Positions 12,215-64,000 of a stretch of DNA of 64,000 nucleotides are shown one piece after another; positions within the stretch are counted from its first letter, which is position 1, and every line of letters begins with the position of its first letter. Origin of the DNA: Deinococcaceae bacterium. Lineage in GTDB: Bacteria > Deinococcota > Deinococci > Deinococcales > Deinococcaceae. The notes under the pieces were generated by a model. That model ran no database searches and had not been told where the DNA came from. It was given only the letters and a program-made list of their open reading frames with translations. The translations under genes and the position numbers were made by a program. Where the stretch lies: NCBI GenBank assembly GCA_046327935.1, contig JAXLXL010000001.1, positions 1,152,386-1,216,385 on the forward strand. Direction: 5' to 3'.

Positions 12215-12220
12215 CACAAC

Positions 12221-33210: not shown

Positions 33211-33631
33211 TCGGTATACCCCAGGGAAACCAAAGTCCCAGGGCACCAGTGAGGCATACAGAACCTCAACCGCTGTTACTGGCCTCGAAGGTTCTTTGAA
33301 ATTCTAGGGGAAACATGTGATGTGTGTATGTGAGAAATGGCCTAGAGAGTGTCCTGCAAATATTTGTTGGGTTTATTTTGAATTGGAGATGGTGTTGAGG
33401 GAGGTGACAGCTGAGGATACCTGCGGTTGGTTCAAACATTCCTTTTGGAAAAGATCATGGACCACTGGATTGGGCGTGGCTGGTTTTCTAAAGGGTCTAA
33501 TTTGAGATGAAAAAACGTTGCTGTATGATGTGCAGAACGAAATTGAGATGAATTTGAAAGATGCGATTTCCGCCTTCAGTCTTTGAGGTTTCATCCATTG
33601 AAATGGCATTTTACAGCGGGTTTCATAATTA

Positions 33632-34165
33632 TTAGGAATTAACAAAGGACATAAAATGCTTTTTATATCCTTCTATATTTTCAGGAGTTACAGCCTCTAC
33701 GCATTCTTGAATGATATTTTCTATGTTATCTATTGTTTTACTTGGATATCTTCTTATTCCATTCTTTATTTTCGAAATCGATTCTTCTATTGGATTCAAT
33801 TCTGGACTATAGGGAGGTATATATAGTATTTCTATTCCATTCTCTTCAAATAAATCTTTTACAGATTTCGTTTTATGTACGCTTAAATTATCCATTACTA
33901 TTTTTCTAATACCAATCTTTTTGATTTCTTCGCAAAATATCTCTATATATTTTAAAAATACGTCAGTATTCATTGTTCCATCAATTATAAACGTGCACAC
34001 CATTTTCATATGTAGAATGAGTATTACATTTCTCTTTTTCCTTCTTTTTGATCTATTTATTTTGCAATATAGTCTTTTTTTATGACTCCATCCATAGAGG
34101 GTTTCACAATCTATATGTACGCCAAATTCATCTAAAAATCCAATTTCATTTAAATCACTTTTCAA
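33632..34165 (-). CDS. IS630 transposase DDE catalytic part (OrfB)
   Basis: DNLSVHKT...YIPPYSPELNPIEE DDE motif region. The frame is open upstream to the A8 tract, +1 relative to OrfA. Confidence 0.8.
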   Translation of the reverse strand: MKSDLNEIGFLDEFGVHIDCETLYGWSHKKRLYCKINRSKRRKKRNVILILHMKMVCTFIIDGTMNTDVFLKYIEIFCEEIKKIGIRKIVMDNLSVHKTKSVKDLFEENGIEILYIPPYSPELNPIEESISKIKNGIRRYPSKTIDNIENIIQECVEAVTPENIEGYKKHFMSFVNS

Positions 34166-34217
34166 AATCTCTTCAATAAATGCCTCTCTTTTTATTATAT
34201 TTGATGGTGTTTCTTTT

Positions 34218-34580
34218 TCAAGTGCGATATAAGTTTTTTTTATACTTTATCCCCGCACGTTGAAACGCTCTATACATTGTCGCTTTTTTCACGGTCACAC
34301 CATACATTTTCTCCCATTCTTGACACGCTTTTTCTAAGGTAATATCCGGCATACTTTGTACCATTGCTCTTAGATTTTCAAAGTCTGCAATATCTATACG
34401 GGGTGGCTTTTTAGTTCCTCTTTTTTTAGGTTCCAATACATTGTTGTCATCAAGCTGCAAGTATCGTCCAACAGCCGAGGAAGAAACATTATATATTTCT
34501 GCAACCTCTTTTATTGTGTATCCTTCATAGTATTTTTCAACTATTCTTTTTCTAAGATCTAAACTATAAGTTACTGGCAT
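34218..34580 (-). CDS. IS630 transposase N-terminal HTH part (OrfA)
   Basis: HTH of the IS630/Tc1 family. Ends at a T8/A8 tract. Confidence 0.8.
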   Translation of the reverse strand: MPVTYSLDLRKRIVEKYYEGYTIKEVAEIYNVSSSAVGRYLQLDDNNVLEPKKRGTKKPPRIDIADFENLRAMVQSMPDITLEKACQEWEKMYGVTVKKATMYRAFQRAGIKYKKNLYRT

Positions 34581-34727
34581 ACATAGATTTTACCACATTA
34601 CATTCAAAAATAAAATATCCCCAAAATTAATAAACTTGCTGTAACGGCCAAAATAATGTACCTTTTTAATTCTTCATCTTGCAAACTGGTGTATCGATCT
34701 TACTTTGATCCGAAATTTGATTTACGG

Positions 34728-38136: not shown

Positions 38137-39137
38137 AGGGATTCAAGGCCATCCATGCTCTGCGCGGCTTTGATGGTTTTTTTGGAACCGGTTTTGAGGT
38201 TAAGTATCGTTAGGTCCTGACCACCCACTTGGCTTCCGACGTAGATTTGGTCTTTATGCACGACAATCTGATCGGAAGAACTGATCGTCTGTGAAAAAGA
38301 AAACAGCTTCTTTGGACTGAATGTTTTAAGGTCGGCGAAAAAGACTGTTTTTCCATCTTCCGATAAAAAATACAATCCTTTTTCATTCATGTGAAATATT
38401 TCGTACCCGTAAATACCCTTTGGTAGAAGTTTCTTACTTTTTTCTTCTAAATTCAAGTCCATTCTGGAAAGATAAAAATTTTTATCTTTTTGAATTTCTC
38501 TATTCACAGCATACAAATCACCTTTAAATTCATATATGCTTCCTATTGACCTACCTGGAAATACTTTCAATTTTGTCGGCTTATTTGACCTTTCATCGAT
38601 CTTGATGATCCCTATTGATCCATCCTCCATGTTTATTGTTTGGTAATAGCTCCCCTTTATTGAAAGATATGATCGAGTCCTCTTTAAGCCACTGTCAATT
38701 TGAGGGAAATACTGTTTAAGGTTGATTACAGTTGCTTTCCCATTCTGGATGACTGCAACTTTGGGACCTGTGGCACAGCCGACAAAGACTTTGCCCGTTG
38801 TTGGACTGACACTCGGGTGAACACCTTGAAATCCTGGAATAAAGTAATCTTTGACGGCATTGCTCTTGAGATCAATGCAAGAAATTGTCTCTGTTTCTTG
38901 CGTACTTTTTGGGCGTGCGTAGGGATTGTAGGCCACACCGGTGATCCAAAGGCAATGGGAATCGACTGCAGCGCCTTGGGTGAGTTTGATTCTGGAATGG
39001 CGAATGGTACGAATGAGACGGCCTTGTGCGTCAAACCACTTGAAGGCAGACTGATCCATTGCAGCGTCGTCTTGCCAATTCACCACATCCCGAACCAAGA
39101 CAGTTGGAGTTCTGTGAGAATCTGTATGGACATTCAT
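38133..39137 (-). CDS. Beta-propeller-like protein, paralog 2 (no signal peptide)
   Basis: Shares a near-identical roughly 165-aa N-terminal block and a 45-aa C-terminal block with the upstream paralog. The central part is divergent and AT-rich. YVTN/PQQ-like blade motifs (GKVFVGCATGPKVAVI). Confidence 0.6.
   Translation of the reverse strand: MNVHTDSHRTPTVLVRDVVNWQDDAAMDQSAFKWFDAQGRLIRTIRHSRIKLTQGAAVDSHCLWITGVAYNPYARPKSTQETETISCIDLKSNAVKDYFIPGFQGVHPSVSPTTGKVFVGCATGPKVAVIQNGKATVINLKQYFPQIDSGLKRTRSYLSIKGSYYQTINMEDGSIGIIKIDERSNKPTKLKVFPGRSIGSIYEFKGDLYAVNREIQKDKNFYLSRMDLNLEEKSKKLLPKGIYGYEIFHMNEKGLYFLSEDGKTVFFADLKTFSPKKLFSFSQTISSSDQIVVHKDQIYVGSQVGGQDLTILNLKTGSKKTIKAAQSMDGLESL
38612..39110. repeat. 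Conserved 5' block of the paralog pair (copy in paralog 2). Its partner is at about 39607-40102.
   Basis: About 0.5 kb at roughly 97% identity between the two genes, GC-normal. Antisense ORFs 38700-39221 and 39695-40156 are mirror images of this repeat. Confidence 0.7.
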
Positions 39138-40192
39138 AGGGATTCAAGGCCATCCATGCTCTGCGCAGCTTTGATGGTTTTTTTGGAACCGGTTTTGAGG
39201 TCAAGTATCGTTAGGTCCTGACCACCCACTTGGCTTCCCACATAAAGCTTGTCTTCCTTGATGAATGTTTTGTAGTACTCTGCATTTTGTTTTTCAAAGA
39301 TAATCCTTTTGAATTTAAAACCATTCAAACTCACCTCAATAAAATACCGCTCATCTTTTAGAAATACAATTTTTTCTTTGTTCAAGAAAATGATGCTTCT
39401 TGGATCTATTGAGTTCGGAATTTTGATCTTCCTTATTGGTTTTATACGGCTGTCTAGAATACCTATCCATGCATCTGATGGATTTTTTATAGATTGAACA
39501 ATTTCATAAAGTTGATCGGTGTTGTGGATGCTTCGTACAGAGTACCCATTTATTGATTGTATTGCTATGGGTTTCTCTGTTTTTTCGTCTATCTGTACAA
39601 GACCTATCCCTCCATTTTTCATATCCACGGTCTGTATATAGTAATGAGAGGACATGTGAATAAATCCGTGCGTGGATTTTAAGCCACTGTCAATTTGATG
39701 GAAATACTGTTTAAGGTTGATTACAGTTGCTTTCCCATTCTGGATGACTGCAACTTTGGGACCTGTGGCACAGCCGACAAAGACTTTGCCCGTTGTTGGA
39801 CTGACACTCGGGTGAACACCTTGAAATCCTGGAATAAAGTAATCTTTGACGGCAGTGCTCTTGAGATCAATGCAAGAAATTGTCTCTGTTTCTTGCGTAC
39901 TTTTGGGGCGTGCGTATGGATTGTAGGCCACACCGGTGATCCAAAGGCAATGGGAATCGACTGCAGCGCCTTGGGTGAGTTTGATTCTGGGATGGCGAAT
40001 GGTACGAATGAGACGGCCTTGTGCGTCAAACCACTTGAAGGAAGACTGATCCATTGCAGCGTCGTCTTGCCAATTCACCACATCCCGAACCAAGACGGTG
40101 GCTGTTTGTGGCATTGGCGGGACTTGACCCGCCGATGTGGGTGTAAGGGCACTTAGGGTGAGACAGAGTGAAAAAACATTTTTGTTGGGCAT
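39134..40192 (-). CDS. Beta-propeller-like secreted protein, paralog 1 (signal peptide)
   Basis: MPNKNVFSLCLTLSALTPTSAG signal peptide. Start ATG 40192. Confidence 0.6.
   Translation of the reverse strand: MPNKNVFSLCLTLSALTPTSAGQVPPMPQTATVLVRDVVNWQDDAAMDQSSFKWFDAQGRLIRTIRHPRIKLTQGAAVDSHCLWITGVAYNPYARPKSTQETETISCIDLKSTAVKDYFIPGFQGVHPSVSPTTGKVFVGCATGPKVAVIQNGKATVINLKQYFHQIDSGLKSTHGFIHMSSHYYIQTVDMKNGGIGLVQIDEKTEKPIAIQSINGYSVRSIHNTDQLYEIVQSIKNPSDAWIGILDSRIKPIRKIKIPNSIDPRSIIFLNKEKIVFLKDERYFIEVSLNGFKFKRIIFEKQNAEYYKTFIKEDKLYVGSQVGGQDLTILDLKTGSKKTIKAAQSMDGLESL
39607..40102. repeat. Conserved 5' block of the paralog pair (copy in paralog 1)
   Basis: See partner block at 38612-39110. Confidence 0.7.
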
Positions 40193-40199
40193 GTTGTCC

Positions 40200-41540
40200 T
40201 CAGGTGCGTTTGAAATCGGCACGCAGAATCAGTTTTCCCTCTTTGTATCCGTTCCAGAGGTGATTGGGCAAAATCGTGCCAAACCACCGAATGGCGTTGG
40301 TTTCCATGATGTTTTTTCCAGCACCGTGGTACCAAGCACCCCACACCAACAAAGAGCAGTAAAACCCTTCGTATTCAGCGTCTTCGTTGTATTTATCCTC
40401 TTGTGGAGACACCAGTAGGCTGTACGGTTTGCCAATTTGTTTTCTCGCCCACTGGACTGCCCAACGTCCCGAGGTTGAATAGACGTCCAAGTAGGCTTGG
40501 CGTTTATGGTAATAGCCTGTGACTATGGCTGTTCTTTCCTCCCTCACTTTTTTTCCCATTCTGGGTGCTTCTGTGAATCGATTGTCTCCCGTTTTTATGG
40601 CTGCGTGTTGCCACCAATCTAGAAGCGATGCCGAGTAGCTCCACACCGTGTCGTAATCTTGAAATCCCAAAAAGATGCCACCCTCTTGAATGCAAGAGCC
40701 TTCTGGGCAACTGGTTGCCGCCTGGCTGTTCATCAGGCTTTTGGGCACGACGTCTTGTGGATTGGATGCAATGGCCACCCAAGGTGGTGGACTTCCGGGA
40801 GGTTGCGCCACGATGGTTTTGTAGTACGAGTTTATGGCTCCGTACGGATCAAAGATGAGAACATCGTTGAGTGGAAGAAAGCCGTCTTTGTACCATTGGT
40901 ATTCTGGAGATCCGTATTCTGAGACGTATTTGAATTGATCGGAAAAAGGGTAGAGCCAAGGGTTTTTCTGGATTTGCTCTAGGAAGTACCAAAAAGGCAT
41001 GGCGTCTGTCCGACTGGTGTTCGGATTTTTGAGCTCCACAAGGGCGTGTCTGGGATCTTTACCGGGTTTGACATCATCTCCAATGATTTTGATGGTGTCT
41101 CTGCGGTCGCGGATACTGGCCGTGATGTGGTAATAGCCTTGAGAAGATGAACGTCTGGGAGACATCCAAATGCTGTAGGGACTCAAGGTCGCCACCGCAT
41201 ATTCTGAATTGAGATCCTCAGAACCCTGAGAAACCGGCTGTGGAACACCTGTGCGTGCCTCACCATAGCCATCGTAGTATGTGGCTTGCCAAGAAACCTC
41301 GCTGGCATAACAACCTTCACCGCTGACCCTTGCGACAAATCTGAAATCTTCGGCGCCTGGATAGAGGACCTGATTGCCGTCGACGATTTTGATCGTGCAG
41401 GCTGGAGAAGACGGTGAAGGTGATGGAGAAGGGCTGGGTGTACGGTGGGGTGAACATCCAAAGCAGGCAAGGCTGTTTGATGTGATCGAAAAAGCCAGGA
41501 AAATACCCCAGAATGCAAAACAACGGCGATCAGATTTCAT
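40200..41540 (-). CDS. Secreted protein with Pro/Ser-rich linker and Cys-containing C-terminal hydrolase-like domain
   Basis: Signal peptide MKSDRRCFAFWGIFLAFSITSNSLA, (SP)n linker, and a Trp/Tyr-rich C-terminal domain with FYCSLLVWGAWYHG. AGGAG RBS. Confidence 0.55.
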   Translation of the reverse strand: MKSDRRCFAFWGIFLAFSITSNSLACFGCSPHRTPSPSPSPSPSSPACTIKIVDGNQVLYPGAEDFRFVARVSGEGCYASEVSWQATYYDGYGEARTGVPQPVSQGSEDLNSEYAVATLSPYSIWMSPRRSSSQGYYHITASIRDRRDTIKIIGDDVKPGKDPRHALVELKNPNTSRTDAMPFWYFLEQIQKNPWLYPFSDQFKYVSEYGSPEYQWYKDGFLPLNDVLIFDPYGAINSYYKTIVAQPPGSPPPWVAIASNPQDVVPKSLMNSQAATSCPEGSCIQEGGIFLGFQDYDTVWSYSASLLDWWQHAAIKTGDNRFTEAPRMGKKVREERTAIVTGYYHKRQAYLDVYSTSGRWAVQWARKQIGKPYSLLVSPQEDKYNEDAEYEGFYCSLLVWGAWYHGAGKNIMETNAIRWFGTILPNHLWNGYKEGKLILRADFKRT

Positions 41541-53049: not shown

Positions 53050-53126
<77 letters not shown>

Positions 53127-53152
53127 AGCTGGCCTTCCAGCCGGGATTTATG

Positions 53153-53632
53153 TTACTGATCTTCTGCGTCAGAGTCAAGGTTCATCCACCGCTGAAGTGC
53201 TGTGCGAATATCGCGAGCAGAAAAGCCTCGGCGTGCCAAAAATCCGTAGGCGCGGTTGTAACCTTTGGGTCCTGCAGAGGACCAACGGTGCCCGTATTTT
53301 TGAATCAGTTCCTGCAGTTCCAGGAGCTCTTGTTCTCGGTCCCACTGCGTCCAAGCCTGCTGTTGTGCGTCCACCGAAAGTCCGCGCTGTTCGAGGGTCA
53401 ACTGTTTGCGGTGGTGTCCGATGCCACGGCGGGTGACGATCTGTTCTGCGACAGAGGTGTCGTCAAGCCATTTTTTGCTCAGGAGATCGTTCAAGATGGC
53501 ATTTACAGACGTTGCGTCACAGCCGTCTTTTTTCGCTTTTTGCTCTAGTTTGGATCTCAACTCAGATTCCGTATAGGCGCGTGCAGCCAAGAGCCGATAG
53601 GCGTACAGCCGGAGTGTTTGTGTGGAATCCAT
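53153..53632 (-). CDS. recX: Regulatory protein RecX
   Basis: Three-helix-repeat RecX family: [23 protein letters not shown]... Confidence 0.7.
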
Positions 53633-53635
53633 GTG

Positions 53636-53830
53636 TCAACCGACAAAATTCCACAGTGGGAGCTGTGGATTGATGGGGGTTCGGTTCATCTTGAGCAAGG
53701 TGTCAAACGACGACGTTCCAGGGAGCCATCCCCGTTCGCATGTGGGACACCACAGGGCTGGATCGCCCCAATGGGTCCACTCTCGCATCAACGGCAGATC
53801 TCTACAATTCAGGCATTTCAGGTGTTCCAT
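53636..53830 (-). CDS. Small zinc-ribbon protein
   Basis: 64 aa with CLNC...CPTC. Confidence 0.35.
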   Translation of the reverse strand: MEHLKCLNCRDLPLMREWTHWGDPALWCPTCERGWLPGTSSFDTLLKMNRTPINPQLPLWNFVG

Positions 53831-54030
53831 AACAGCTGCACACTAGCAAATCCAGCGTCTGAAGGTGTCGGCTTGATGGGAATGAGCGGCAAGAGGTAGG
53901 GAATGAGGATGAGGAGGATCAAAAGGTAAGCTATAAAAACAACAGTCCAGTCGATGTGCTTCTCGGGAATGGGTTTGTCCAGCCACGGTTCGTCTTCATG
54001 TTCATGGAAATGTTGAGGAATCGCTTTCAT
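53818..54030 (-). CDS. Small single-pass membrane protein
   Basis: 70 aa with one strong TM helix. Confidence 0.35.
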   Translation of the reverse strand: MKAIPQHFHEHEDEPWLDKPIPEKHIDWTVVFIAYLLILLILIPYLLPLIPIKPTPSDAGFASVQLLWNT

Positions 54031-54106
54031 GATCTATATAATACACCAATATAAAAAATTTACCACTAGCTGCCTGCGCGACCGGTGGTAAACAAGGCGT
54101 GTCGTT

Positions 54107-55165
54107 TTACTTGGACTTTTTGCCTGTTGCCATTTCCCAGACGCTGTAATCCACCGCAGAAGGGCTTGGGTTGGATTTCAGAATGCCCAGGTCTTTAAGC
54201 AATTTGACGGAGTCTTGGTACGCTTTTGGATCGAGCAGTCCGGCTTTGCCCTTCAGTGTGGATCCAGCATTGTAGAGTTTGGCCACCTCATTCATTTGCC
54301 ACGTTTGGTGGGCTTTTGCGTCTGATCGGTTTCCTGAGCCTTTGCAGGTGTTTCCGCAAACCGGAAGAACCATTTGGACGGCCTCAGCCTGGTGTTTGAC
54401 GGCATAATCCCAGCCTTTAATGGAGGCCCGGATCAGCTTGGCAGCGACTTCTTTTCCGGTCAGTCCGGACCCGCCAAAGTTTTTGTCACTCAGAACTTTT
54501 TCGGATGTAAACATGAGATCTTCGAGCAAATTGACGCCATAATCGGCGGCCTTGAACACCTTGAGCTTGTCTGCGCTGTAGCCCAACCCCATGATCTGGT
54601 CCAACTCGTTGTAGGTCATGGCCGAGACCAGATCGACCTTGTCGGGGAAGACCAAAGCAGGGTCGAATGGGTAGGTGATGGCTTGCACATCGGGCTTGCT
54701 GGCGGTTGCGTCCAGTGAACTGGAATAACCGTATTTTTTGAGCATGGCCACAGCGGGATACTCGTTTCCGGAGGGCCAAACGCCAATGCGTTTGCCTTTG
54801 AAATCTTTGGGTGTCTTGAGTGAGCTGGATTTGAGGCTCACCAACGTAAAGCCGCTTTTTTGGAAAATCTGGGCAATGTGCACAACAGGCAAACCATTTT
54901 GCCGGGCGGTCAAGAGATCGGTGATCCAAGTCGTCCCAAAATCTGCGGCTCCAGTGACCACCGTTTGGATGGGACTTTGGTCGCCGATGGGCAACAGCGT
55001 GACATCCAAACCCTCTTCCTTAAAGAAGCCTTTTTCTTTCGCGACAAAAAACCCTGCAAACTGGGCTTGGGGAAACCATTTCAGCTGCAGTTTCACGGGA
55101 ATGGATTTTTGGGCTTGAGCTCCAGAAAAAGCAAGTGCAAGTACAACCAGGACAGTTTTTTTCAT
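54107..55165 (-). CDS. ABC transporter substrate-binding protein, NMT1/THI5-like (SsuA/TauA family)
   Basis: Signal peptide MKKTVLVVLALAFSGAQA and AGGAGA RBS. KLQLKWFPQAQFAGF motif. Confidence 0.7.
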   Translation of the reverse strand: MKKTVLVVLALAFSGAQAQKSIPVKLQLKWFPQAQFAGFFVAKEKGFFKEEGLDVTLLPIGDQSPIQTVVTGAADFGTTWITDLLTARQNGLPVVHIAQIFQKSGFTLVSLKSSSLKTPKDFKGKRIGVWPSGNEYPAVAMLKKYGYSSSLDATASKPDVQAITYPFDPALVFPDKVDLVSAMTYNELDQIMGLGYSADKLKVFKAADYGVNLLEDLMFTSEKVLSDKNFGGSGLTGKEVAAKLIRASIKGWDYAVKHQAEAVQMVLPVCGNTCKGSGNRSDAKAHQTWQMNEVAKLYNAGSTLKGKAGLLDPKAYQDSVKLLKDLGILKSNPSPSAVDYSVWEMATGKKSK

Positions 55166-55365
55166 GTGTTCTCCTATGGAATCCCAGTGGGTGGGATGCA
55201 TAACGGCAAGTATACGTGATCTCTTGTTAAATTCAGCTGAGGTGTCCCTATATACAGGCCTCATGTTTGGCCGCTAAACTGGAGGCGCGTCCATACCTCA
55301 AAGCTTTTTTGGCTTTCGTTTGGACCTTTTTGCGTTTACAAAACAAATAGGGCGCACGAAAGGAC

Positions 55366-56688
55366 ATGATTTTGAACCCTGATCCAAACCTCTCTTTGGG
55401 AGAATACCACGCTCCTCTGACCGATCACGAAGCTCGGATTGAATCCAATCGCTGTCTGTATTGCTATGACGCACCGTGCATTCAGGCCTGTCCCACGCAT
55501 ATCGACATTCCCAGTTTTATCAAGAAGATCTCGACTGGAAATGTACGTGGCAGTGCCCGCGTGATCCTGGAAAGCAACTTTTTGGGTGGAACCTGTGCCC
55601 GCGTCTGTCCTGTACAGGAGTTGTGTGAAGGTGCTTGCGTTTTGGGCAGTGAGCACAAACCGATCGAGATCGGTCGTCTGCAGCGGTACGCAACAGACCA
55701 CGTCGCTCAAAAGGGAATAGATCTGTTTGAAGCGGCGTCTCCCACGGGTTTTAAAGTCGCTGTCGTGGGTTCGGGTCCAGCGGGACTCTCTTGTGCGGCA
55801 GAGTTGGCCAAGCTGGGTCACGCGGTCACCCTATTTGAGAAGCGGGCCTTGGCTGGTGGACTCTCTACGTACGGAATCATTGTGCTGCGCGAGCCCGTAG
55901 AGGTTGCGCTCGAAGAAGTGCGTGCGGTTGAGCGCTTGGGCGTAGCGGTCAAAACCAATGTGGAAGTCGGCCGCGACATCGCATTCAAAGACCTTCAAGA
56001 CGGATACGACGCCATTTTCCTGGCTGTTGGCTTGGGGGGCGTGCCCAGTATGGACATTCCCAATGAGGCACACATCTTGAGTGGTCTTGAGTACATCGAA
56101 ACCAGCAAATTGGATCCGGCCGCTCTACCCAAAGGCAAAAATGTTGTGGTGATCGGTGCGGGCAACACGGCCATCGATGCCGCAACCGTGGCCAAACGGT
56201 GGGGCGCTGAGCGCGTCGTGATGGTGTACAGAAGGACAGAGGCCGAAATGACGGCCTATCCCTTTGAGTACCAATTCGCCAAGCAGGAAGGCATTGAATA
56301 CCGTTTCCTGACCCAACCGGTCGGTGTGGTGGTCGAGCAGGGGAATGTCACAGGACTCGAGTGTGTGCGCATGGCCTTGGGATCCCCGGATGCCAGCGGG
56401 CGCCCTTCGCCAATACCTGTGGAAAACAGCGAGTTTGTTATTGCCGCAGACCTCGTCATCAAGGCCATTGGTCAAGAAAAACCTTCTTTGGCTGCGCATT
56501 TGGGACTCAAAACAGACAAGGGCTACATTGCCGTCGACGGTGATTTCAAGACCAGTCTCGAAAATGTGTATGCAGGTGGAGATTGTATCCGCGCCCGTGG
56601 TGATGCCTCAACGGTGATGGGCGTCCAAGATGGAAAGTTGGCAGCCCGTGCGATCCACAAGCGGCTGTTGGCGATAATTAAGAATTGA
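55366..56688 (+). CDS. preT: NAD-dependent dihydropyrimidine dehydrogenase subunit PreT (GltD-like)
   Basis: N-terminal Cys cluster CLYCYDAPCIQACP. Dinucleotide folds VAVVGSGPAG and VVVIGAGNTA. Confidence 0.8.
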   Translation: MILNPDPNLSLGEYHAPLTDHEARIESNRCLYCYDAPCIQACPTHIDIPSFIKKISTGNVRGSARVILESNFLGGTCARVCPVQELCEGACVLGSEHKPIEIGRLQRYATDHVAQKGIDLFEAASPTGFKVAVVGSGPAGLSCAAELAKLGHAVTLFEKRALAGGLSTYGIIVLREPVEVALEEVRAVERLGVAVKTNVEVGRDIAFKDLQDGYDAIFLAVGLGGVPSMDIPNEAHILSGLEYIETSKLDPAALPKGKNVVVIGAGNTAIDAATVAKRWGAERVVMVYRRTEAEMTAYPFEYQFAKQEGIEYRFLTQPVGVVVEQGNVTGLECVRMALGSPDASGRPSPIPVENSEFVIAADLVIKAIGQEKPSLAAHLGLKTDKGYIAVDGDFKTSLENVYAGGDCIRARGDASTVMGVQDGKLAARAIHKRLLAIIKN

Positions 56689-56713
56689 CAACTATCAGAA
56701 AATGGAGTGAACC

Positions 56714-58090
56714 ATGGCAGATTTAAGCATTGATTTTGCAGGGATTCGATCCCCCAATCCTTTTTGGTTGGCGTCAGCGCCTCCGACCAACAGCGCAAAG
56801 CAGATTCACCGGGCCTTTGAGTACGGCTGGGGTGGGGCCGTTTGGAAAACCATTGGCGCGCCAGTTTTGAACGTGTCCAATCGATATGGCGGGTACAGCT
56901 ATGCTGGACAGCGTTTGGTTGCCATCAACAATGTCGAATTGATTTCGGATCGACCGCTCGAGGTCAACCTCAGGGAAATCGCTGAAGTGAAAAAAATGTG
57001 GCCTGATCGGGCTGTGATTGTCTCAGCGATGGTTGAATCCAAACGGGAAGCCTGGCATGAGATCATTTCCAGAATCCATGACACGGGCGCCGATGGAATC
57101 GAACTCAACTACGGCTGTCCACACGGGATGTCCGAGCGAGGCATGGGAAGCGCGGTGGGTCAAGTTCCCGAATATTGCCAAATGATCACCGAATGGGTGA
57201 TGGAAGTCGCCCAATTGCCCGTCATTGTCAAACTGACGCCAAATGTGGCCGATGTTTCTCCCAGTGCGAGGGCGGCAGCACTTGCCAACGCCGACGCAAT
57301 CAGTTTGATCAACACCATCAATTCGATCATGGGTGTCGATTTGGACAATTTGCACACCGTACCCAGCATTGGCGGAAAGGGAAGCCACGGCGGTTACGCA
57401 GGTCCAGCTGTAAAGCCCATCGCGCTCAACATGCTCTCGGCGGCTGCTTCGGTTCCCGAAATCCAGGGCCGCAACATGCCCATTTCTGGGATGGGCGGCA
57501 TTTCGACTTGGCGTGATGCCGCGGAGTTTCTCCTTTTGGGTGCGACCAGTCTTCAGGTTTGCACGGCCGTGATGCACTACGGCTACCGGATCATTGAGGA
57601 TCTCTGCGACGGCTTATCCAATTGGCTTGATGACAAAGGTTATGCCTCGGTCATGGACGTTGTGGGACTGAGCTTGCCTCGGATCAGCCGCTACGAAGAT
57701 TTTGATTTGGGTTTCAAAGCCGTGGCCAAAATCAATGCGGATAAATGCATTCAATGTAATTTGTGTTATGTGGCCTGCAATGACACCACCCATCAATGCA
57801 TTGATTTGCACGCCCCAGATGGATCGATTGTGCTCCCAGGCTACGATGAGCGCATCAACGGTCGCGGGGTTGCAGACACACGGGCCACACCTCAAGTTCG
57901 AGAAGAAGATTGTGTCGGTTGTGCCCTCTGCTACAACGTTTGTCCTGTAGACGGTTGCATCGAAATGGTTGAAATCCCGTCCGGACAGGACCACACCACA
58001 TGGAAGCAGCTCACCCAACAGCGGCCCGAAATTATGGATTGGGACGGCATGGAAAAGTATAGAGAAGAAAAGGGTATTGTCATTCACTGA
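56714..58090 (+). CDS. preA: NAD-dependent dihydropyrimidine dehydrogenase subunit PreA (DHOD-like plus 2x[4Fe-4S])
   Basis: TIM-barrel DHOD-like domain (NYGCPHGM) plus C-terminal CIQCNLCYVAC and CVGCALCYNVCP ferredoxin motifs. Confidence 0.85.
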   Translation: MADLSIDFAGIRSPNPFWLASAPPTNSAKQIHRAFEYGWGGAVWKTIGAPVLNVSNRYGGYSYAGQRLVAINNVELISDRPLEVNLREIAEVKKMWPDRAVIVSAMVESKREAWHEIISRIHDTGADGIELNYGCPHGMSERGMGSAVGQVPEYCQMITEWVMEVAQLPVIVKLTPNVADVSPSARAAALANADAISLINTINSIMGVDLDNLHTVPSIGGKGSHGGYAGPAVKPIALNMLSAAASVPEIQGRNMPISGMGGISTWRDAAEFLLLGATSLQVCTAVMHYGYRIIEDLCDGLSNWLDDKGYASVMDVVGLSLPRISRYEDFDLGFKAVAKINADKCIQCNLCYVACNDTTHQCIDLHAPDGSIVLPGYDERINGRGVADTRATPQVREEDCVGCALCYNVCPVDGCIEMVEIPSGQDHTTWKQLTQQRPEIMDWDGMEKYREEKGIVIH

Positions 58091-58554
58091 TCCACACAAG
58101 AAAAACGGTTTTACCGGAGATTTGACAAGGGGCACAGGAGCATCTAAACGCGGCATCGGTTTTGTGGGTTGAAACCGTCGCTTTGGGTTCTCCTGTTTTA
58201 AATGGCGTTCGGATTGCTGGATTGGTGCACAACACTTCATCTTTTTACCCCACTTACGCATCTTTTAAGAATGCATTTCTGTTGCCTTTCATAGATCAAT
58301 CCTCAATGGCTGGGTGATCCCAAAGATACATTAAACTCAGAATGGATCTTCATTTTTCACGAGATTGAGGGTTGATTTACATTCTTCAGGCAAAAAAAGT
58401 AGAAAGGTGTTATGCGTGGCGTCTGTCCAACCCACCACATGGAACTTTTGTGTACAGAAAGCAGTCTATTTTCACAACCCCCCAAAGGGTGGTATTTTCC
58501 AATGAAGCCTTGATGAATAATTAATTGTAGGTCTCCCTTGACCTAGAGGTCCAT

Positions 58555-59304
58555 ATGATACAGAAACTCTCCTTCGCAGTCGTTTCGGCTTGTCTGTTCT
58601 TGACCTCCTGTGGAGATTTGTCGTCCGCCAAGCAGGAGGCTCCTTTCACATTTGAGGAAATCAAAGGCATGACACCGGAACAAATAGCACAAAGCCCTTT
58701 GATTACAGAACGCAATATTTTTACCTATATGAGCTTGGATCAGATGAAAATGTTAAGTTTTGAGCAACTGAGAGCCGTCGTTCAGACCATACAGAAACCC
58801 GCTGAGGCTGAATTGGACAAAGTCAGTAATCAACTCCGTGCCCAAGTCTTTGACGAGATCATTCATGGCCAGGGCAGCACCGATCTGTGGCCCAATTACA
58901 CACTGACGGCCTATATTGCCATAGCCATTCCGTACACCACCTATTTGAGCGATTACCTGAATAAATTCAATGGCCCAGACTGGAGCGACGATGGCTGTTC
59001 TGGACCGACTGCACCTTCCTCGTTTGACGGTACCGCATGCAAACACCACGATTTTGGTTACCGGAATGTGGCCCTCTATCAGCGTTCCCGTTTATACCAA
59101 GAATATACGGATCCATGGACATTGGACGACTACTACATGCGCCGTCTGATTGACCAACGTTTTTCTAGAAACATGACCGACTATTGCAACAGTGGTCAGC
59201 CGTATTCTGGAGGCGTTTGCACTGCGGATGCAGATATTTTCTGGGCGGGTGTGCGTGTTGGCGGACAAGGCCCTTTTGAAGAAAAACCGATCAAATTCAG
59301 GTGA
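58555..59304 (+). CDS. Lipoprotein with C-terminal prokaryotic phospholipase A2 domain
   Basis: Lipobox LFLTSC. C-terminal DGCSGPTAPSSFDGTACKHHDFGYRN closely parallels the secreted bacterial/fungal PLA2 active-site region (C...ACxRHDFGYRN). Confidence 0.6.
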   Translation: MIQKLSFAVVSACLFLTSCGDLSSAKQEAPFTFEEIKGMTPEQIAQSPLITERNIFTYMSLDQMKMLSFEQLRAVVQTIQKPAEAELDKVSNQLRAQVFDEIIHGQGSTDLWPNYTLTAYIAIAIPYTTYLSDYLNKFNGPDWSDDGCSGPTAPSSFDGTACKHHDFGYRNVALYQRSRLYQEYTDPWTLDDYYMRRLIDQRFSRNMTDYCNSGQPYSGGVCTADADIFWAGVRVGGQGPFEEKPIKFR

Positions 59305-59330
59305 ACTGTTTTGCAACTGGAGGGCATTTT

Positions 59331-59573
59331 ATGCTTAAGATGTGTGGTTGGATTGTTTTGTCAGCGCTTCTGTTGTCTTCCTGTAATTTGTCTTCTCCTA
59401 CTTTTACAGAATCCAAAGCGGAAAACCTAGGAAATTATAAAGATTCTGAGGCCCTCGGGTCTTTCAGGCTTTCTCTAGGAGAGTCAGATGAAACACTTTC
59501 TATTCAAGATACAACCTCCATTTCGGGGGCGTCTCTTTCTTATACAGCGGGTTTCATAATTATTAGGAATTAA
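59331..59573 (+). pseudogene. Lipoprotein gene truncated by an IS630 insertion
   Basis: MLKMCGWIVLSALLLSSC (lipobox). The ORF runs into the IS left end at 59545 and terminates inside the IS. Confidence 0.45.
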
Positions 59574-60096
59574 CAAAGGACATAAAATGCTTTTTATATC
59601 CTTCTATATTTTCAGGAGTTACAGCCTCTACGCATTCTTGAATGATATTTTCTATGTTATCTATTGTTTTACTTGGATATCTTCTTATTCCATTCTTTAT
59701 TTTCGAAATCGATTCTTCTATTGGATTCAATTCTGGACTATAGGGAGGTATATATAGTATTTCTATTCCATTCTCTTTAAATAAATCTTTTACAGATTTC
59801 GTTTTATGTACGCTTAAATTATCCATTACTATTTTTCTAATACCAATCTTTTTGATTTCTTCGCAAAATATCTCTATATATTTTAAAAATACGTCAGTAT
59901 TCATTGTTCCATCAATTATAAACGTGCACACCATTTTCATATGTAGAATGAGTATTACATTTCTCTTTTTCCTTCTTTTTGATCTATTTATTTTGCAATA
60001 TAGTCTTTTTTTATGACTCCATCCATAGAGGGTTTCACAATCTATATGTACGCCAAATTCATCTAAAAATCCAATTTCATTTAAATCACTTTTCAA
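59563..60096 (-). CDS. IS630 transposase OrfB (copy 2)
   Basis: DDE domain with one substitution relative to copy 1. Confidence 0.8.
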   Translation of the reverse strand: MKSDLNEIGFLDEFGVHIDCETLYGWSHKKRLYCKINRSKRRKKRNVILILHMKMVCTFIIDGTMNTDVFLKYIEIFCEEIKKIGIRKIVMDNLSVHKTKSVKDLFKENGIEILYIPPYSPELNPIEESISKIKNGIRRYPSKTIDNIENIIQECVEAVTPENIEGYKKHFMSFVNS

Positions 60097-60148
60097 AATC
60101 TCTTCAATAAATGCCTCTCTTTTTATTATATTTGATGGTGTTTCTTTT

Positions 60149-60511
60149 TCAAGTGCGATATAAGTTTTTTTTATACTTTATCCCCGCACGTTGAAACGCT
60201 CTATACATTGTCGCTTTTTTCACGGTCACACCATACATTTTCTCCCATTCTTGACACGCTTTTTCTAAGGTAATATCCGGCATACTTTGTACCATTGCTC
60301 TTAGATTTTCAAAGTCTGCAATATCTATACGGGGTGGCTTTTTAGTTCCTCTTTTTTTAGGTTCCAATACATTGTTGTCATCAAGCTGCAAGTATCGTCC
60401 AACAGCCGAGGAAGAAACATTATATATTTCTGCAACCTCTTTTATTGTGTATCCTTCATAGTATTTTTCAACTATTCTTTTTCTAAGATCTAAACTATAA
60501 GTTACTGGCAT
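60149..60511 (-). CDS. IS630 transposase OrfA (copy 2)
   Basis: Identical to copy 1. Confidence 0.8.
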   Translation of the reverse strand: MPVTYSLDLRKRIVEKYYEGYTIKEVAEIYNVSSSAVGRYLQLDDNNVLEPKKRGTKKPPRIDIADFENLRAMVQSMPDITLEKACQEWEKMYGVTVKKATMYRAFQRAGIKYKKNLYRT

Positions 60512-60603
60512 ACATAGATTTTACCACATTACATTCAAAAATAAAATATCCCCAAAATTAATAAACTTGCTGTATCTCATCATCTTCCTTCGATGTAGGT
60601 GGG

Positions 60604-63024
60604 ATGCGCTACCTCTCATCGACATATCGGGTCAACCTCCCAAGCAGTCGCCTTCTCGATGGAATGACCTTTATTCCGACAGTAACCCCCAACACGCTTG
60701 GAAATACCTCTGTGTCTGGGCTGTTCTTGTGGAGTGCTTCCCAAAAAAGCATGTATCCCGTCTCGAATGCGACACTGCGTTCACAAATGGCACGCTCGGT
60801 CATGCCTACAGGCGGCCCAATGCGGCTTTATGGAGGAAGGGCACAGCTCGATCCCCAGTTTGGACCGAATTTTCAGGCCTTTTCCAGTGCAGATTTTAAC
60901 CTTCTGACTCAAAAAGGTGTGGTCAAGCCGGGTGCGCTGCCATTTGGATTCACAACCCATTATGTGGCATCCAGCTCAACGACGAACAGCATCCCGCCCC
61001 GCACGGTTTCCAAAGGCCATTATTTAACCGTCAGTGTTAAGTTTCCCCTACAAAGAACGCTCGATATCACGCCTTCGCGTATTGATTTAGAGGGAATTCT
61101 TGTTACCGGTATGGTCAAAACAGTCACAGAATCTCTGGAGGATCAGGCCAGAGGTGATCTAGGTGCGGCTGTTTTGAAACGCATCTCTGATCAAAAGGCG
61201 CAGATCCTCAACATTTTGCCAGGAAGCACGATCACATCAGCCCCTCCTGGGGTTGTGATGAACAAAATATGCCAAATTCCACTGACGTATGGCGGCAGTT
61301 CTGTCAGAAACAACACAACGGTATACCTGGTCAATCAAGCAGGAAAGGGCTTTCTGGGGATGCTTCCTGGATTCGCAGAGATCAAGGGAAACACCTCCAT
61401 CTCTGTCCGATTTGCCAGTGTTGAACCCGGATGCAATATCCTGGATCCACAAAACCCACAAAACCAATTTGCCATTTATGGTTCCCAAACGGGTCTTAGG
61501 TTGGCGAATTTCAATCCTGCCAACAGAGGGACTTTTTCTCAGAAGCCCCAAACATGGAATTATGTGCCTGCTCCAGGAGCGGAGTTTAAGCCTGGAGAAG
61601 AACTTGTGGTTACGGCCCTCGATCCCCATTATCCGCGTTCCTATGTGGCAAAATTTCGGGTTGAGAGTGCTCCAGAAAGCCAAATTGGTTTTGTGGCCAA
61701 TCCACTCATTGACATGGGATCTGGACCCAGCGATTTGAGATTGATTGACCTTAACCGAGATGGCGCAAAAGATATGGTCACCCTCCACAAGTCCGCTGGT
61801 TTGCTTGTGACACAACTTATTTCAAATGGAACACTTCAGTCTGCTCAGAAACTGTTGCTCCAAGGCACCCCAAACGCCCTGGATTTTGGTTTCATCAATG
61901 GCGACCTCAGTCCAGACATGGTTGTTGCCAACGATGGGCTTTCGTTTCCAGGTGTTCAGGTCTTGTTGGGTCAGGGCAATGGCAGCTTTAAGTACGATCA
62001 AGATGTCGATTTGGGAGGAATCAAACCCACCCGGGTCAAACTGGATGAATTCAACTTGAGCGAAGACGACCACCTGGATACCGACAACGTTCCCGTACAC
62101 AGCAAGTTTTTGCCTGACATTGCTTTTTTGAGCCCGGGTTCTGCCTCCATTGGCATTTCACCTCGGAGCCAAGACAATGCAGCTTTCGAAGTTGCTCCGC
62201 TGCTCACAGTTCCAGTCTCCAATCAACCCGACACCACAACTTTTGGCTATGGCGATTTCAACTCAGATGGCCGTTACGATCTGGTGACCGGACATCCCAA
62301 TGGTTCTGTACGCATCACGTGGGGGAAATTGGACGGTTCTTTTGCGCCGTTAAATGAGCAGGCCCTTTTGACGGTCGGTGGAAGTGATGTTCGAGACATA
62401 GAAGTGGCTGACCTCAATGGCGATTGCCTTGAAGAGATTTTGGTCGCCCACAACAACCCTCCTGGACTGACGGTATTTTGGCAACAACAGACGGAAGTGC
62501 CCATGGGCAGCAATTCCTGTCACAAGGGTGTCGGAGAATTCAATGCCCATACCTATACACTGAGTGGTTTGGTTCCAGACCGCATTCAATTCGTCGACAT
62601 TGACCAAAACGAAGGCGTGGACCTGGCTTTGGTTGACTCCTCAAATGGACGTGTGGGACTGTTGAAAAACACAACGATGTTTGATCTGTCTCACCCTGAA
62701 AACCAGCTGACTTCTCTTGGCGTCATTTCTGCAGGACCATCGTTGAGTGCGGTCGCCATCACAGACGTTACAGCTGATACTGTTCCAGACCTTCTTCTGG
62801 CCTATTCGGCCTCGGATGGATTGGGCCTTTTGAAGGGAAATGCTGTCGGATCGTTTGGTGTACAGGTGCCGGCCTATCCTGCTGGGTCGATGACCCAATC
62901 GTTGGCCTTGGGTGACCTCAATGGCGATGGTTACTTAGATTCAGTCTCTTCCGGTACCTCTGGCGGTCAAAATCAACTGGTTCTGTTGAAAGGTTCCACT
63001 GCGGGATTACAGCAAGTTTATTAA
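60604..63024 (+). CDS. FG-GAP/VCBS-repeat protein (integrin-alpha-like beta-propeller), bounded on both sides by IS copies
   Basis: Repeated D-x-[ND]-x-DG-x-x-D-hydrophobic motifs (DLNRDGAKDMVT, GDFNSDGRYDLVTG, DLNGDGYLDSVS). No signal peptide. The last 5 codons and the stop lie inside IS copy 3. Confidence 0.6.
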   Translation: MRYLSSTYRVNLPSSRLLDGMTFIPTVTPNTLGNTSVSGLFLWSASQKSMYPVSNATLRSQMARSVMPTGGPMRLYGGRAQLDPQFGPNFQAFSSADFNLLTQKGVVKPGALPFGFTTHYVASSSTTNSIPPRTVSKGHYLTVSVKFPLQRTLDITPSRIDLEGILVTGMVKTVTESLEDQARGDLGAAVLKRISDQKAQILNILPGSTITSAPPGVVMNKICQIPLTYGGSSVRNNTTVYLVNQAGKGFLGMLPGFAEIKGNTSISVRFASVEPGCNILDPQNPQNQFAIYGSQTGLRLANFNPANRGTFSQKPQTWNYVPAPGAEFKPGEELVVTALDPHYPRSYVAKFRVESAPESQIGFVANPLIDMGSGPSDLRLIDLNRDGAKDMVTLHKSAGLLVTQLISNGTLQSAQKLLLQGTPNALDFGFINGDLSPDMVVANDGLSFPGVQVLLGQGNGSFKYDQDVDLGGIKPTRVKLDEFNLSEDDHLDTDNVPVHSKFLPDIAFLSPGSASIGISPRSQDNAAFEVAPLLTVPVSNQPDTTTFGYGDFNSDGRYDLVTGHPNGSVRITWGKLDGSFAPLNEQALLTVGGSDVRDIEVADLNGDCLEEILVAHNNPPGLTVFWQQQTEVPMGSNSCHKGVGEFNAHTYTLSGLVPDRIQFVDIDQNEGVDLALVDSSNGRVGLLKNTTMFDLSHPENQLTSLGVISAGPSLSAVAITDVTADTVPDLLLAYSASDGLGLLKGNAVGSFGVQVPAYPAGSMTQSLALGDLNGDGYLDSVSSGTSGGQNQLVLLKGSTAGLQQVY

Positions 63025-63070
63025 TTTTGGGGATATTCTATTTTTGAATGTAATGTGGTAAAATCTATGT

Positions 63071-63433
63071 ATGCCAGTAACTTATAGTTTAGATCTTAGA
63101 AAAAGAATAGTTGAAAAATACTATGAAGGATACACAATAAAAGAGGTTGCAGAAATATATAATGTTTCTTCCTCGGCTGTTGGACGATACTTGCAGCTTG
63201 ATGACAACAATGTATTGGAACCTAAAAAAAGAGGAACTAAAAAGCCACCCCGTATAGATATTGCAGACTTTGAAAATCTAAGAGCAATGGTACAAAGTAT
63301 GCCGGATATTACCTTAGAAAAAGCGTGTCAAGAATGGGAGAAAATGTATGGTGTGACCGTGAAAAAAGCGACAATGTATAGAGCGTTTCAACGTGCGGGG
63401 ATAAAGTATAAAAAAAACTTATATCGCACTTGA
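63071..63433 (+). CDS. IS630 transposase OrfA (copy 3)
   Basis: Identical to the other copies. A8 tract at 63428-63435. Confidence 0.8.
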   Translation: MPVTYSLDLRKRIVEKYYEGYTIKEVAEIYNVSSSAVGRYLQLDDNNVLEPKKRGTKKPPRIDIADFENLRAMVQSMPDITLEKACQEWEKMYGVTVKKATMYRAFQRAGIKYKKNLYRT

Positions 63434-63485
63434 AAAAGAAACACCATCAAATATAATAAAAAGAGAGGCATTTATTGAAGAGATT

Positions 63486-64000
63486 TTGAAAAGTGATTTA
63501 AATGAAATTGGATTTTTAGATGAATTTGGCGTACATATAGATTGTGAAACCCTCTATGGATGGAGTCATAAAAAAAGACTATATTGCAAAATAAATAGAT
63601 CAAAAAGAAGGAAAAAGAGAAATGTAATACTCATTCTACATATGAAAATGGTGTGCACGTTTATAATTGATGGAACAATGAATACTGACGTATTTTTAAA
63701 ATATATAGAGATATTTTGCGAAGAAATCAAAAAGATTGGTATTAGAAAAATAGTAATGGATAATTTAAGCGTACATAAAACGAAATCTGTAAAAGATTTA
63801 TTTGAAGAGAATGGAATAGAAATACTATATATACCTCCCTATAGTCCAGAATTGAATCCAATAGAAGAATCGATTTCGAAAATAAAGAATGGAATAAGAA
63901 GATATCCAAGTAAAACAATAGATAACATAGAAAATATCATTCAAGAATGCGTAGAGGCTGTAACTCCTGAAAATATAGAAGGATATAAAAAGCATTTTAT
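63486..64000 (+). CDS. IS630 transposase OrfB (copy 3, truncated by window end)
   Basis: MKSDLNEIGF... identical to copy 1 as far as visible. Confidence 0.7.
   Translation, partial: MKSDLNEIGFLDEFGVHIDCETLYGWSHKKRLYCKINRSKRRKKRNVILILHMKMVCTFIIDGTMNTDVFLKYIEIFCEEIKKIGIRKIVMDNLSVHKTKSVKDLFEENGIEILYIPPYSPELNPIEESISKIKNGIRRYPSKTIDNIENIIQECVEAVTPENIEGYKKHF

What the first reader, a model, noticed from the sequence alone, without database searches (positions are those of the whole stretch)
59545..64000. Composite-transposon-like unit: inverted IS630 copies flank an FG-GAP repeat gene and truncate a lipoprotein gene
IS copies 2 (minus) and 3 (plus) sit in inverted orientation 2.4 kb apart. Between them is an 806-aa FG-GAP/VCBS beta-propeller ORF that begins 31 bp after one IS and takes its last five codons and stop from the other. 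The preceding lipoprotein ORF (start 59331) runs into IS copy 2 and is truncated. Either a surface or adhesin-like gene has been captured as a mobilisable composite element, or a larger gene was cut at both ends.
Basis: seen in the sequence. Interest (0 to 1): 0.6.

Follow-up and report, generated by a model that had tools for sequence, protein, structure and literature searches.

The report
One lipoprotein gene, two IS630 insertions
Two copies of a small jumping-gene element landed separately inside one large surface-lipoprotein gene and cut it into three pieces, so this is ordinary gene inactivation and not a mobile unit that captured a gene.

Summary
The sequence features are real. Two 99.8%-identical copies of a 1,028-bp IS630-family element (59545-60572 on the minus strand; 63010 to beyond 64000 on the plus strand) lie inverted, 2,437 bp apart, around an 806-aa FG-GAP ORF.

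The "truncated lipoprotein ORF" and the "FG-GAP gene" are one gene. Removing copy 2 plus one TA fuses them in frame. An IS-free relative (Logan contig L005, 89-96% nucleotide identity, same gene order) carries an uninterrupted 1,178-aa lipoprotein gene. It has a single TA at the copy 2 site and continuous gene sequence across the copy 3 site, where its codon reads TTG rather than TTA.

The missing 291 C-terminal codons sit just beyond copy 3. A contig from the same sample (L006) starts with the IS outer end, then TA, then the next codon. NCBI accession order on the source contig agrees.

The three pieces rebuild a 1,174-codon ORF with no internal stop. The segment between the IS copies is therefore native DNA and was not brought in as cargo. 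Only the geometry resembles a composite transposon, and no evidence of joint movement was found.

Sister strains have deleted this gene and the neighbouring phospholipase A2 gene. This is ordinary, recent pseudogenisation in an IS-rich Deinococcaceae MAG.

The parts
58555..59304 (+). Phospholipase A2 lipoprotein gene. It is the upstream neighbour, given here as context, and is co-deleted with the FG-GAP gene in sister strains.
   Evidence: Pfam PF09056, E 2.3e-12. NCBI name 'phospholipase A2', MFN8510045. Deleted in L008-L010.
59331..59544 (+). 5' fragment of the disrupted lipoprotein gene: codons 1-71 plus the first base of codon 72. It carries the signal peptide and the lipobox Cys18.
   Evidence: In frame with 60575 onward after IS excision. 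Matches residues 1-71 of the intact ortholog P0007. Cys18 is invariant in remote homologs.
59543..59544 (.). TA target-site copy on the left of IS copy 2. The partner copy is at 60573-60574.
   Evidence: The IS-free L005 has a single TA here, at L005 6485-6486.
59545..60572 (-). IS630-family element, copy 2 (1,028 bp).
   Evidence: Alignment of the three copies. Exact ends. One substitution (position 795) relative to copy 1.
60149..60511 (-). IS copy 2 orfA: the helix-turn-helix N-terminal part of the transposase, 120 aa.
   Evidence: Pfam HTH_Tnp_IS630, E 8e-10. NCBI 'IS630 transposase-related protein'.
59563..60096 (-). IS copy 2 orfB: the DDE catalytic part of the transposase, 177 aa. It is separated from orfA by a one-base frame change at an A8 run.
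   Evidence: Pfam DDE_3, E 3.8e-27. The frame-corrected 315-aa fusion scores 167 bits against NF033545 (cut-off 100) over profile positions 2-298 of 299.
60575..63009 (+). Middle fragment of the disrupted lipoprotein gene (codons 72-883): an N-terminal domain of unknown fold plus FG-GAP repeats.
   Evidence: Aligns with L005 6487-8933 at 89% nucleotide identity. The reconstructed protein is 91% identical to P0007 residues 1-887.
60604..63024 (+). The 806-aa ORF as annotated (NCBI MFN8510048, 'VCBS repeat-containing protein'). It is an artefactual reading of the middle fragment, from an internal Met to a stop inside IS copy 3.
   Evidence: Its Met lies inside the conserved GxRY motif of homologs, which have W, Y or V at that position.
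63008..63009 (.). TA target-site copy on the inner side of IS copy 3.
   Evidence: The outer TA is seen in L006.
63010..64000 (+). IS630-family element, copy 3: the first 991 of 1,028 bp. The rest lies beyond the window.
   Evidence: Its last 26 nt, then TA, then the continuation of the gene are in L006.
33614..34641 (-). IS630-family element, copy 1, flanked by TA. No long ORF spans the site after excision.

Best explanation
A resident chromosomal gene of about 1,174 codons, encoding a secreted lipoprotein with an N-terminal domain of unknown fold and a long run of FG-GAP/VCBS repeats, was hit twice by a multicopy 1,028-bp IS630-family insertion sequence. Each hit was an ordinary insertion at a TA dinucleotide that duplicated the TA. 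One lies after codon 71 (copy 2, minus strand) and one after codon 883 (copy 3, plus strand).

The gene is now in three pieces:
- a signal-peptide stub;
- an 812-codon middle piece, which gene callers read as an '806-aa VCBS protein' from an internal ATG to a stop inside the IS;
- a 291-codon tail beyond the window.

The gene is a recent pseudogene. The inverted IS pair is a by-product of two separate insertions, and the DNA between the copies is native.

Shown directly: IS boundaries, TA duplications, frame continuity, colinearity with an IS-free ortholog, and the position of the tail.

Inferred: that the two insertions were independent events from different donor copies, that they are recent, and that the fragments are non-functional.
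For: 1. Removing 59545-60574 (IS plus one TA) joins ORF 59331.. to ORF 60604.. in frame with no stop.

2. P0007 (1,178 aa) sits in the same 90% cluster as the 806-aa ORF. Its contig L005 has the same neighbours (PreT-like oxidoreductase, PreA, PLA2, gene, YIP1...), no IS, a single TA at site A and uninterrupted sequence at site B.

3. L006 comes from the same run as contigs that are exact substrings of the window. It begins with the last 26 nt of the IS, then TA, then AATCCATGG..., which is the codon that follows site B in L005.

4. NCBI accessions on the 1.46-Mb contig run PLA2 045, [046-047], VCBS 048, [049-051], YIP1 052, 053.... The order is therefore colinear.

5. The three pieces give 3,525 nt, or 1,174 codons, with only the native stop. 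The product is 90% identical to P0007. A crude pN/pS of 0.20 over the whole gene indicates a long functional history and recent disruption.

6. Five remote homologs (28-32% identity) align from Met1 and the lipobox Cys18 straight across the junction. Invariant residues lie on both sides (L42, G43, Q59 | G81, R83, Y84).

7. The middle segment has about 50% GC, like the host. The IS has 30% GC.

8. The IS is multicopy in the MAG: at least 9 orfB accessions on at least 3 contigs. The position-795 variant of copy 2 and that of copy 3 are each shared with other copies elsewhere.
Against: - The source contig beyond 64000 could not be read directly. Linkage of the tail to copy 3 rests on a separate short-read contig from the same sample plus accession order.
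- If the MAG was built from short reads, the orientation of a 2.4-kb segment between 1-kb inverted repeats is not resolved by the assembly itself. The orientation in the window is, however, the ancestral one.
- Nothing here shows that the unit cannot move in future.
- Independence of the two insertions is inferred from 1-2 substitutions only.
Confidence: 0.93

Rival explanations
1. Captured cargo: a composite transposon (IS - FG-GAP gene - IS) transposed into this locus as a unit, truncating an unrelated lipoprotein gene on arrival.
For: Geometry only. Two near-identical inverted IS copies 2.4 kb apart have identical outer ends and outward-reading transposase genes. This is the layout reported for Tn630-NC1 (PMC11544213).
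Against: - A unit insertion predicts that the two outer flanks are continuous with each other. Here each outer flank is instead continuous with the adjacent inner sequence.
- The IS-free ortholog has the same DNA at the same place.
- The segment is an internal fragment with host-like GC.
- No second copy was found in the window, in GTDB representative genomes or in JGI metagenomes.
Confidence: 0.02
2. Nascent composite or invertible element: although it formed in place, the IS - fragment - IS unit is now active as a Tn630-type composite transposon, or flips by recombination between the inverted IS copies.
For: - The outer ends are two identical right-end repeats.
- The IS has clearly been active recently: copies are 99.8-99.9% identical, with at least 9 copies in the MAG.
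- Inverted 1-kb repeats are good substrates for homologous inversion. This is general knowledge and was not tested here.
Against: - There is no observation of movement or of the inverted isomer.
- The passenger is a gene fragment with no selectable value.
- Every copy seen has the transposase split at an A8 run.
- De Bruijn contigs break inside the IS, so they cannot show either isomer.
Confidence: 0.05
3. Assembly artefact: the IS copies or their positions result from repeat mis-assembly in the MAG.
For: The MAG comes from a metagenome, and 1-kb repeats are hard for short-read assemblers.
Against: Independent Logan assemblies of three runs give contigs that are exact substrings of the window and stop about 26 nt inside the IS at the same junctions. 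The outer junction of copy 3 is recovered in L006. No IS-free branch appears at site A in those runs.
Confidence: 0.02

Closest known systems
IS630-family insertion sequences (IS630/Tc1/mariner superfamily; for example IS630 of Shigella sonnei and ISY100 of Synechocystis, PMC2170065)
   Same: - About 1 kb long with terminal inverted repeats.
- One transposase with an N-terminal HTH and a DDE_3 catalytic domain.
- Strict TA target, duplicated on insertion. Here this was verified against empty sites.
- The frame-corrected transposase passes NCBIfam NF033545 (167 bits against a cut-off of 100).
   Different: - It is a distinct element: the nearest non-self transposase is 43% identical over the DDE part, and full-length relatives are 29-33% identical.
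- An exact 32-nt IS-end pattern found no match in 185,579 GTDB representative genomes.
- In all three copies in the window the transposase is split by one base at an A8 run. Whether this is programmed slippage or a shared defect is unknown.
Tn630-NC1 of Nitrosomonas communis, reported as the first composite transposon built from IS630 copies (PMC11544213)
   Same: Two inverted IS630-family copies bracket a few kb. The transposase genes read from the interior outward. The outer ends match each other perfectly, while the outer and inner ends of each IS differ.
   Different: Tn630-NC1 carries whole passenger genes (VapE, AntA/B, BrnT/A). Here the 'passenger' is the middle of a resident gene whose two ends lie immediately outside the IS copies, so the structure arose in place by two insertions.
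Classical composite transposons (Tn5, Tn10, Tn9)
   Same: A pair of IS copies flanks a DNA segment.
   Different: The classical elements carry complete selectable genes, occur at many loci and have target duplications at the outer ends only. None of this holds here.
IS-mediated pseudogenisation in IS-expanded genomes (for example Shigella, Yersinia pestis, Burkholderia mallei; from general knowledge)
   Same: A recently expanded multicopy IS interrupts a non-essential surface-protein gene. Gene callers then report the fragments as proteins.
   Different: Nothing of substance. The only unusual detail is two hits in one gene.

Membership tests
IS630 family insertion sequence | Transposase with an N-terminal HTH and a DDE_3 (DD[34-35]E-type) catalytic domain that passes the family model | tested here: met
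   Pfam HTH_Tnp_IS630 and DDE_3. The frame-corrected 315-aa protein scores 167 bits against NF033545 (cut-off 100) over profile positions 2-298 of 299.
IS630 family insertion sequence | Insertion at TA with duplication of the TA | tested here: met
   TA lies on both sides of copies 1 and 2. It also lies on both sides of copy 3, with the inner TA in the window and the outer TA in L006. The empty site A in L005 has a single TA.
IS630 family insertion sequence | Terminal inverted repeats and a size of about 1-1.4 kb | tested here: met
   1,028 bp. Ends are CAGCAAGTTTATTAATT... and CAGCGGGTTTCATAATT..., and the inverted repeats are imperfect.
IS630 family insertion sequence | Single uninterrupted transposase ORF, or a documented programmed frameshift | tested here: inconclusive
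   All three copies have two ORFs separated by one base at an A8 run. Relatives include both single-ORF proteins of 312-320 aa and split forms. No expression data are available.
Composite transposon | Two copies of one IS flank a DNA segment | tested here: met
   Copies 2 and 3 are inverted and 2,437 bp apart.
Composite transposon | The flanked segment is foreign to the site: the outer flanks are continuous with each other and not with the inner DNA | tested here: not met
   Each outer flank continues in frame into the inner segment. The IS-free L005 carries the same DNA at the same place.
Composite transposon | The unit occurs at more than one locus or genome, which would show joint mobility | tested here: not met
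   No second copy in the window. No relatives were found in GTDB representative genomes or JGI metagenomes. The protein cluster has only this locus and the IS-free ortholog. The search reach is limited: peptide-word scans find close relatives only.
Composite transposon | Carries complete passenger gene(s) | tested here: not met
   The content is codons 72-883 of a 1,174-codon gene.
FG-GAP / VCBS repeat protein | Repeated FG-GAP-like units with Ca-binding DxNxDG-type motifs | tested here: met
   PF13517 E 6.5e-23 and PF01839 E 1.4e-7. Thousands of FG-GAP hits to residues 440-883. The propeller fold was not confirmed, because the model has pLDDT 51.
Bacterial lipoprotein | Signal peptide ending in a lipobox with an invariant Cys | tested here: met
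   MLKMCGWIVLSALLLSS-C18. The Cys is invariant in seven aligned family members. Lipidation itself cannot be tested here.

The most novel reading that the evidence does not exclude
The PLA2 / FG-GAP surface-lipoprotein pair may be under selection for loss in this Deinococcaceae clade. It is knocked out by two IS hits in one lineage, removed by a 4.6-kb deletion between 15-nt direct repeats in another (contigs from three runs), and intact in a third. That pattern would fit a costly surface structure such as a phage receptor. As a side possibility, the in-place IS - fragment - IS arrangement may be an early stage of a Tn630-type composite or invertible element.
Probability: 0.12. Interest if true: 0.35.

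Novelty: new member of a known kind. Interest (0 to 1): 0.12.

Why it matters
The main value is corrective.

- The 806-aa 'VCBS repeat-containing protein' in GenBank (MFN8510048) is the middle of a broken gene, yet it serves as the representative of its protein cluster. The true full-length form is the 1,178-aa P0007.
- For IS630/TA elements, target duplications cannot distinguish a composite insertion from two single insertions. Flank continuity against an IS-free relative can.
- Biologically this is a routine snapshot of an IS expansion eroding an accessory surface-protein gene. The same gene is independently deleted in sister strains, which is a mildly interesting sign that it is dispensable or costly.

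Tried and rejected
- Scanned genome contigs with the 806-aa protein and with a 32-nt IS-end pattern, hoping to reach the source contig beyond the window. Both gave no hits.
- Scanned metagenome contigs with the protein and with a degenerate empty-site pattern for site A. Both gave no hits.
- Looked up the IS orfA in the gene-position index. It is not on record.
- Searched the clustered protein database with the 291-aa tail of P0007, to find the MAG's C-terminal fragment as an annotated protein. Only FG-GAP proteins of 37% identity or less came back, so the fragment is not present as a cluster representative. The tail was found instead through the downstream YIP1 gene.
- Predicted the structure of the reconstructed 883-aa protein with a 7-sequence alignment. 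Mean pLDDT was 51, too low for a fold search or for counting propeller blades, so I make no claim about the N-terminal domain.
- Scanned for an outward promoter in the IS end that might drive the 806-aa ORF. There is one weak match (60520-60547, 9 of 12), and the total number of matches is no higher than in shuffled sequence, so this is not evidence.
- My first excision attempt used boundaries from the repeat finder (59540/60575), which include chance-matching flank bases, and it gave a false out-of-frame result.

Full report
**Observation.** A self-comparison of the window finds three copies of one repeat. Alignment and end-mapping define it:
- It is 1,028 bp long, with imperfect terminal inverted repeats (CAGCAAGTTTATTAATT... 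at the transposase 5' end, CAGCGGGTTTCATAATT... at the other end).
- It is always flanked by TA.
- Copy 1 is 33614-34641 (-), copy 2 is 59545-60572 (-), and copy 3 starts at 63010 (+) and leaves the window after 991 bp.
- Copies differ at one or two positions: position 795 is A in copy 2 only, and position 29 is C in copy 3 only.

The element encodes a 120-aa HTH_Tnp_IS630 ORF and a 177-aa DDE_3 ORF. Deleting one A from an A8 run at IS positions 401-408 fuses them into a 315-aa protein. That protein scores 167 bits against NCBIfam NF033545, 'IS630 family transposase' (cut-off 100), over profile positions 2-298 of 299.

Copies 2 and 3 are inverted with 2,437 bp between them, and both transposase genes read outward. 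The 806-aa ORF (60604-63024) begins 31 nt after copy 2. It ends LQQVY*, with the stop inside copy 3, and it carries FG-GAP_3 and FG-GAP repeats. The upstream ORF (ATG at 59331) has a lipoprotein signal and runs into copy 2.

**What it is.** Removing copy 2 together with one TA (59545-60574) places the upstream ORF and the 806-aa ORF in the same frame with no stop between them (...SISGASLSY|ISSSSFDVGGMRYLSS...). On its own, chance would give this about one time in five, so I looked for an uninterrupted allele.

The 806-aa ORF is 100% identical to NCBI MFN8510048, 'MAG: VCBS repeat-containing protein [Deinococcaceae bacterium]', on a 1.46-Mb contig. It has no other close relative among cluster representatives. 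Its 90% cluster does hold a second member, P0007, of 1,178 aa.

P0007 is encoded on an 18-kb contig from a different sequencing run (L005). Its gene order is PreT-like oxidoreductase, PreA, phospholipase A2, P0007, YIP1, and so on. L005 aligns to the window as follows:

| L005 | Window | Nucleotide identity |
|---|---|---|
| 1-5439 | 53080-58534 | 96% |
| 5488-6486 | 58546-59544 | 93% |
| 6485-8932 | 60573-63008 | 89% |

L005 contains no IS sequence. Where the window has TA - copy 2 - TA, L005 has one TA. Where the window has TTA followed by copy 3, L005 reads TTG AAT CCA TGG and simply continues.

The reconstructed 883-aa window protein aligns end to end with P0007 residues 1-887 at 91% identity. 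P0007 then has 291 further residues.

**The missing tail.** The clusters of the genes downstream in L005 include the MAG's orthologs. Their accession numbers run PLA2 MFN8510045, [046-047], VCBS 048, [049-051], YIP1 052, 053, 055-060, so the MAG is colinear with L005.

A contig carrying the MAG's exact YIP1 protein, from run SRR26348422, is L006. The same run yields contigs that are exact substrings of the window. L006 starts ATTCCTAATAATTATGAAACCCGCTG|TA|AATCCATGGATG... This is the last 26 nt of the IS, then a TA, then exactly the codon that follows site B in L005. It then reads 291 codons to a native stop.

Joining 59331-59544, 60575-63009 and L006 29-904 gives 3,525 nt, or 1,174 codons, with no internal stop. 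The product is 90% identical to P0007. Both insertions are therefore simple, TA-duplicating, single-IS events inside one gene.

**Independent support.**
- An exhaustive HMMER search found five remote homologs (28-32% identity). They align from Met1 and the lipobox Cys straight across the copy 2 site. Invariant residues lie on both sides: M1, C18, L42, G43 and Q59 before it, and G81, R83 and Y84 after it. The Met that starts the 806-aa ORF sits inside the conserved GxRY motif and is W, Y or V in the relatives.
- The segment between the IS copies has about 50% GC, like the host. The IS has 30%.
- A crude pN/pS between the window lineage and L005 is 0.20 for the whole gene, against 0.02-0.13 for its neighbours. 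The gene was under purifying selection for most of that divergence. Together with the absence of any other lesion and the near-identity of the IS copies, this indicates recent disruption.

**Composite-transposon reading.** A unit that arrived as IS - cargo - IS would leave its two outer flanks continuous with each other. Here each outer flank is continuous with the adjacent inner DNA, and an IS-free relative has that DNA in the same place. The cargo-capture model is therefore refuted.

The geometry does match what was recently described as the first IS630 composite, Tn630-NC1: outward-reading transposases, and outer ends that match each other better than the two ends of one IS do (PMC11544213). 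That element carries whole passenger genes. This one carries codons 72-883 of a broken gene.

No second copy of the unit was found in the window, in GTDB representative genomes or in JGI metagenomes. Future joint movement, or inversion by recombination between the 1-kb inverted repeats, cannot be excluded. De Bruijn contigs break inside the IS and cannot reveal either event.

**Context.**
- The IS is multicopy in the MAG. At least nine orfB accessions on at least three contigs are listed, and the listing is truncated at four per variant. The position-795 variant of copy 2 and that of copy 3 are each shared with other copies elsewhere, which favours two independent donors.
- Contigs L008, L009 and L010, from three other runs, lack L005 5111-9707. 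They have lost PLA2 and all but the last 34 or so codons of the FG-GAP gene, between 15-nt direct repeats (ACCGTCGCTTTGGGT). The surviving 3' remnant shows this is a deletion.
- The gene pair is therefore dispensable and has been lost in two different ways in related lineages.

**Limits.**
- The MAG contig beyond base 64000 was not read directly.
- The structure model of the protein was too poor to use (pLDDT 51).
- Whether the split transposase is expressed by slippage is unknown.

**Verdict.** The 'larger gene cut at both ends' alternative is correct, and the lipoprotein stub belongs to that same gene. The 'captured, mobilisable composite' reading is not supported. This is an ordinary, well-resolved case of double IS insertion producing a pseudogene, involving a previously uncatalogued IS630-family member.

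Noticed in passing
window 12529-12633: A 101-bp element (12531-12631) has IS630-type ends like the IS (TA|CAGCGAGTTT ... AAAACTGCTG|TA) and is flanked by TA. It is probably a MITE derived from this or a related IS630 element. The end motif TACAGCRRGTTT occurs 10 times in the window, against 0.8 expected by chance.
   Followed up: partly
window 10537-12346 and 17146-18955: A 1,810-bp direct segmental duplication (98.8% identity, 6.6 kb apart) gives two full copies of a 436-aa SRP54/Ffh-like ORF (10627-11937 and 17236-18546) plus the start of a glutaredoxin-like ORF. The MITE-like element and an IS remnant lie just downstream of the two copies. This could be a real duplication or an assembly issue.
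   Followed up: no
window 19497-19622: A 126-nt stretch is 74% identical to the transposase-5' end region of the IS. It is a remnant of a related IS630-family element.
   Followed up: no
window 38132-40222: Two adjacent minus-strand ORFs (334 and 362 aa) share a 419-nt block at 98.6% identity and a 106-nt block at 98%, spaced about 1 kb apart. They look like tandem paralogues with recent gene conversion or duplication.
   Followed up: no
L008 11378-11918, L009 5393-5933, L010 (sister-strain contigs); corresponds to window ~58190-63009 plus the tail: Contigs from three other runs carry a clean 4.6-kb deletion (L005 5111-9707) between 15-nt direct repeats (ACCGTCGCTTTGGGT). It removes the PLA2 gene and all but the last 34 or so codons of the FG-GAP lipoprotein gene. 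The same gene pair has thus been lost by a different route.
   Followed up: yes
IS positions 401-408 (window 60165-60172 in copy 2; also copies 1 and 3): In all three copies in the window the transposase is split into orfA and orfB by one base at an A8 run. Removing one A restores a full-length IS630 transposase. This could be transcriptional slippage, a programmed +1 frameshift, or a shared defect that is mobilised in trans.
   Followed up: partly
window 60604-63024 (NCBI MFN8510048.1): The public annotation calls the middle fragment an intact 806-aa 'VCBS repeat-containing protein', and it is the representative of its 90% cluster. The full-length form (P0007, 1,178 aa) is hidden as a member. 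Searches of cluster representatives therefore miss the C-terminal 291 aa.
   Followed up: yes
window 33614-34641: No ORF of 100 aa or more spans the insertion site of IS copy 1 after excision. The longest is a 98-aa stop-to-stop stretch on the minus strand. Copy 1 lies in direct orientation with copy 2, 25.9 kb away, so the pair is a potential substrate for deletion of the intervening region.
   Followed up: partly
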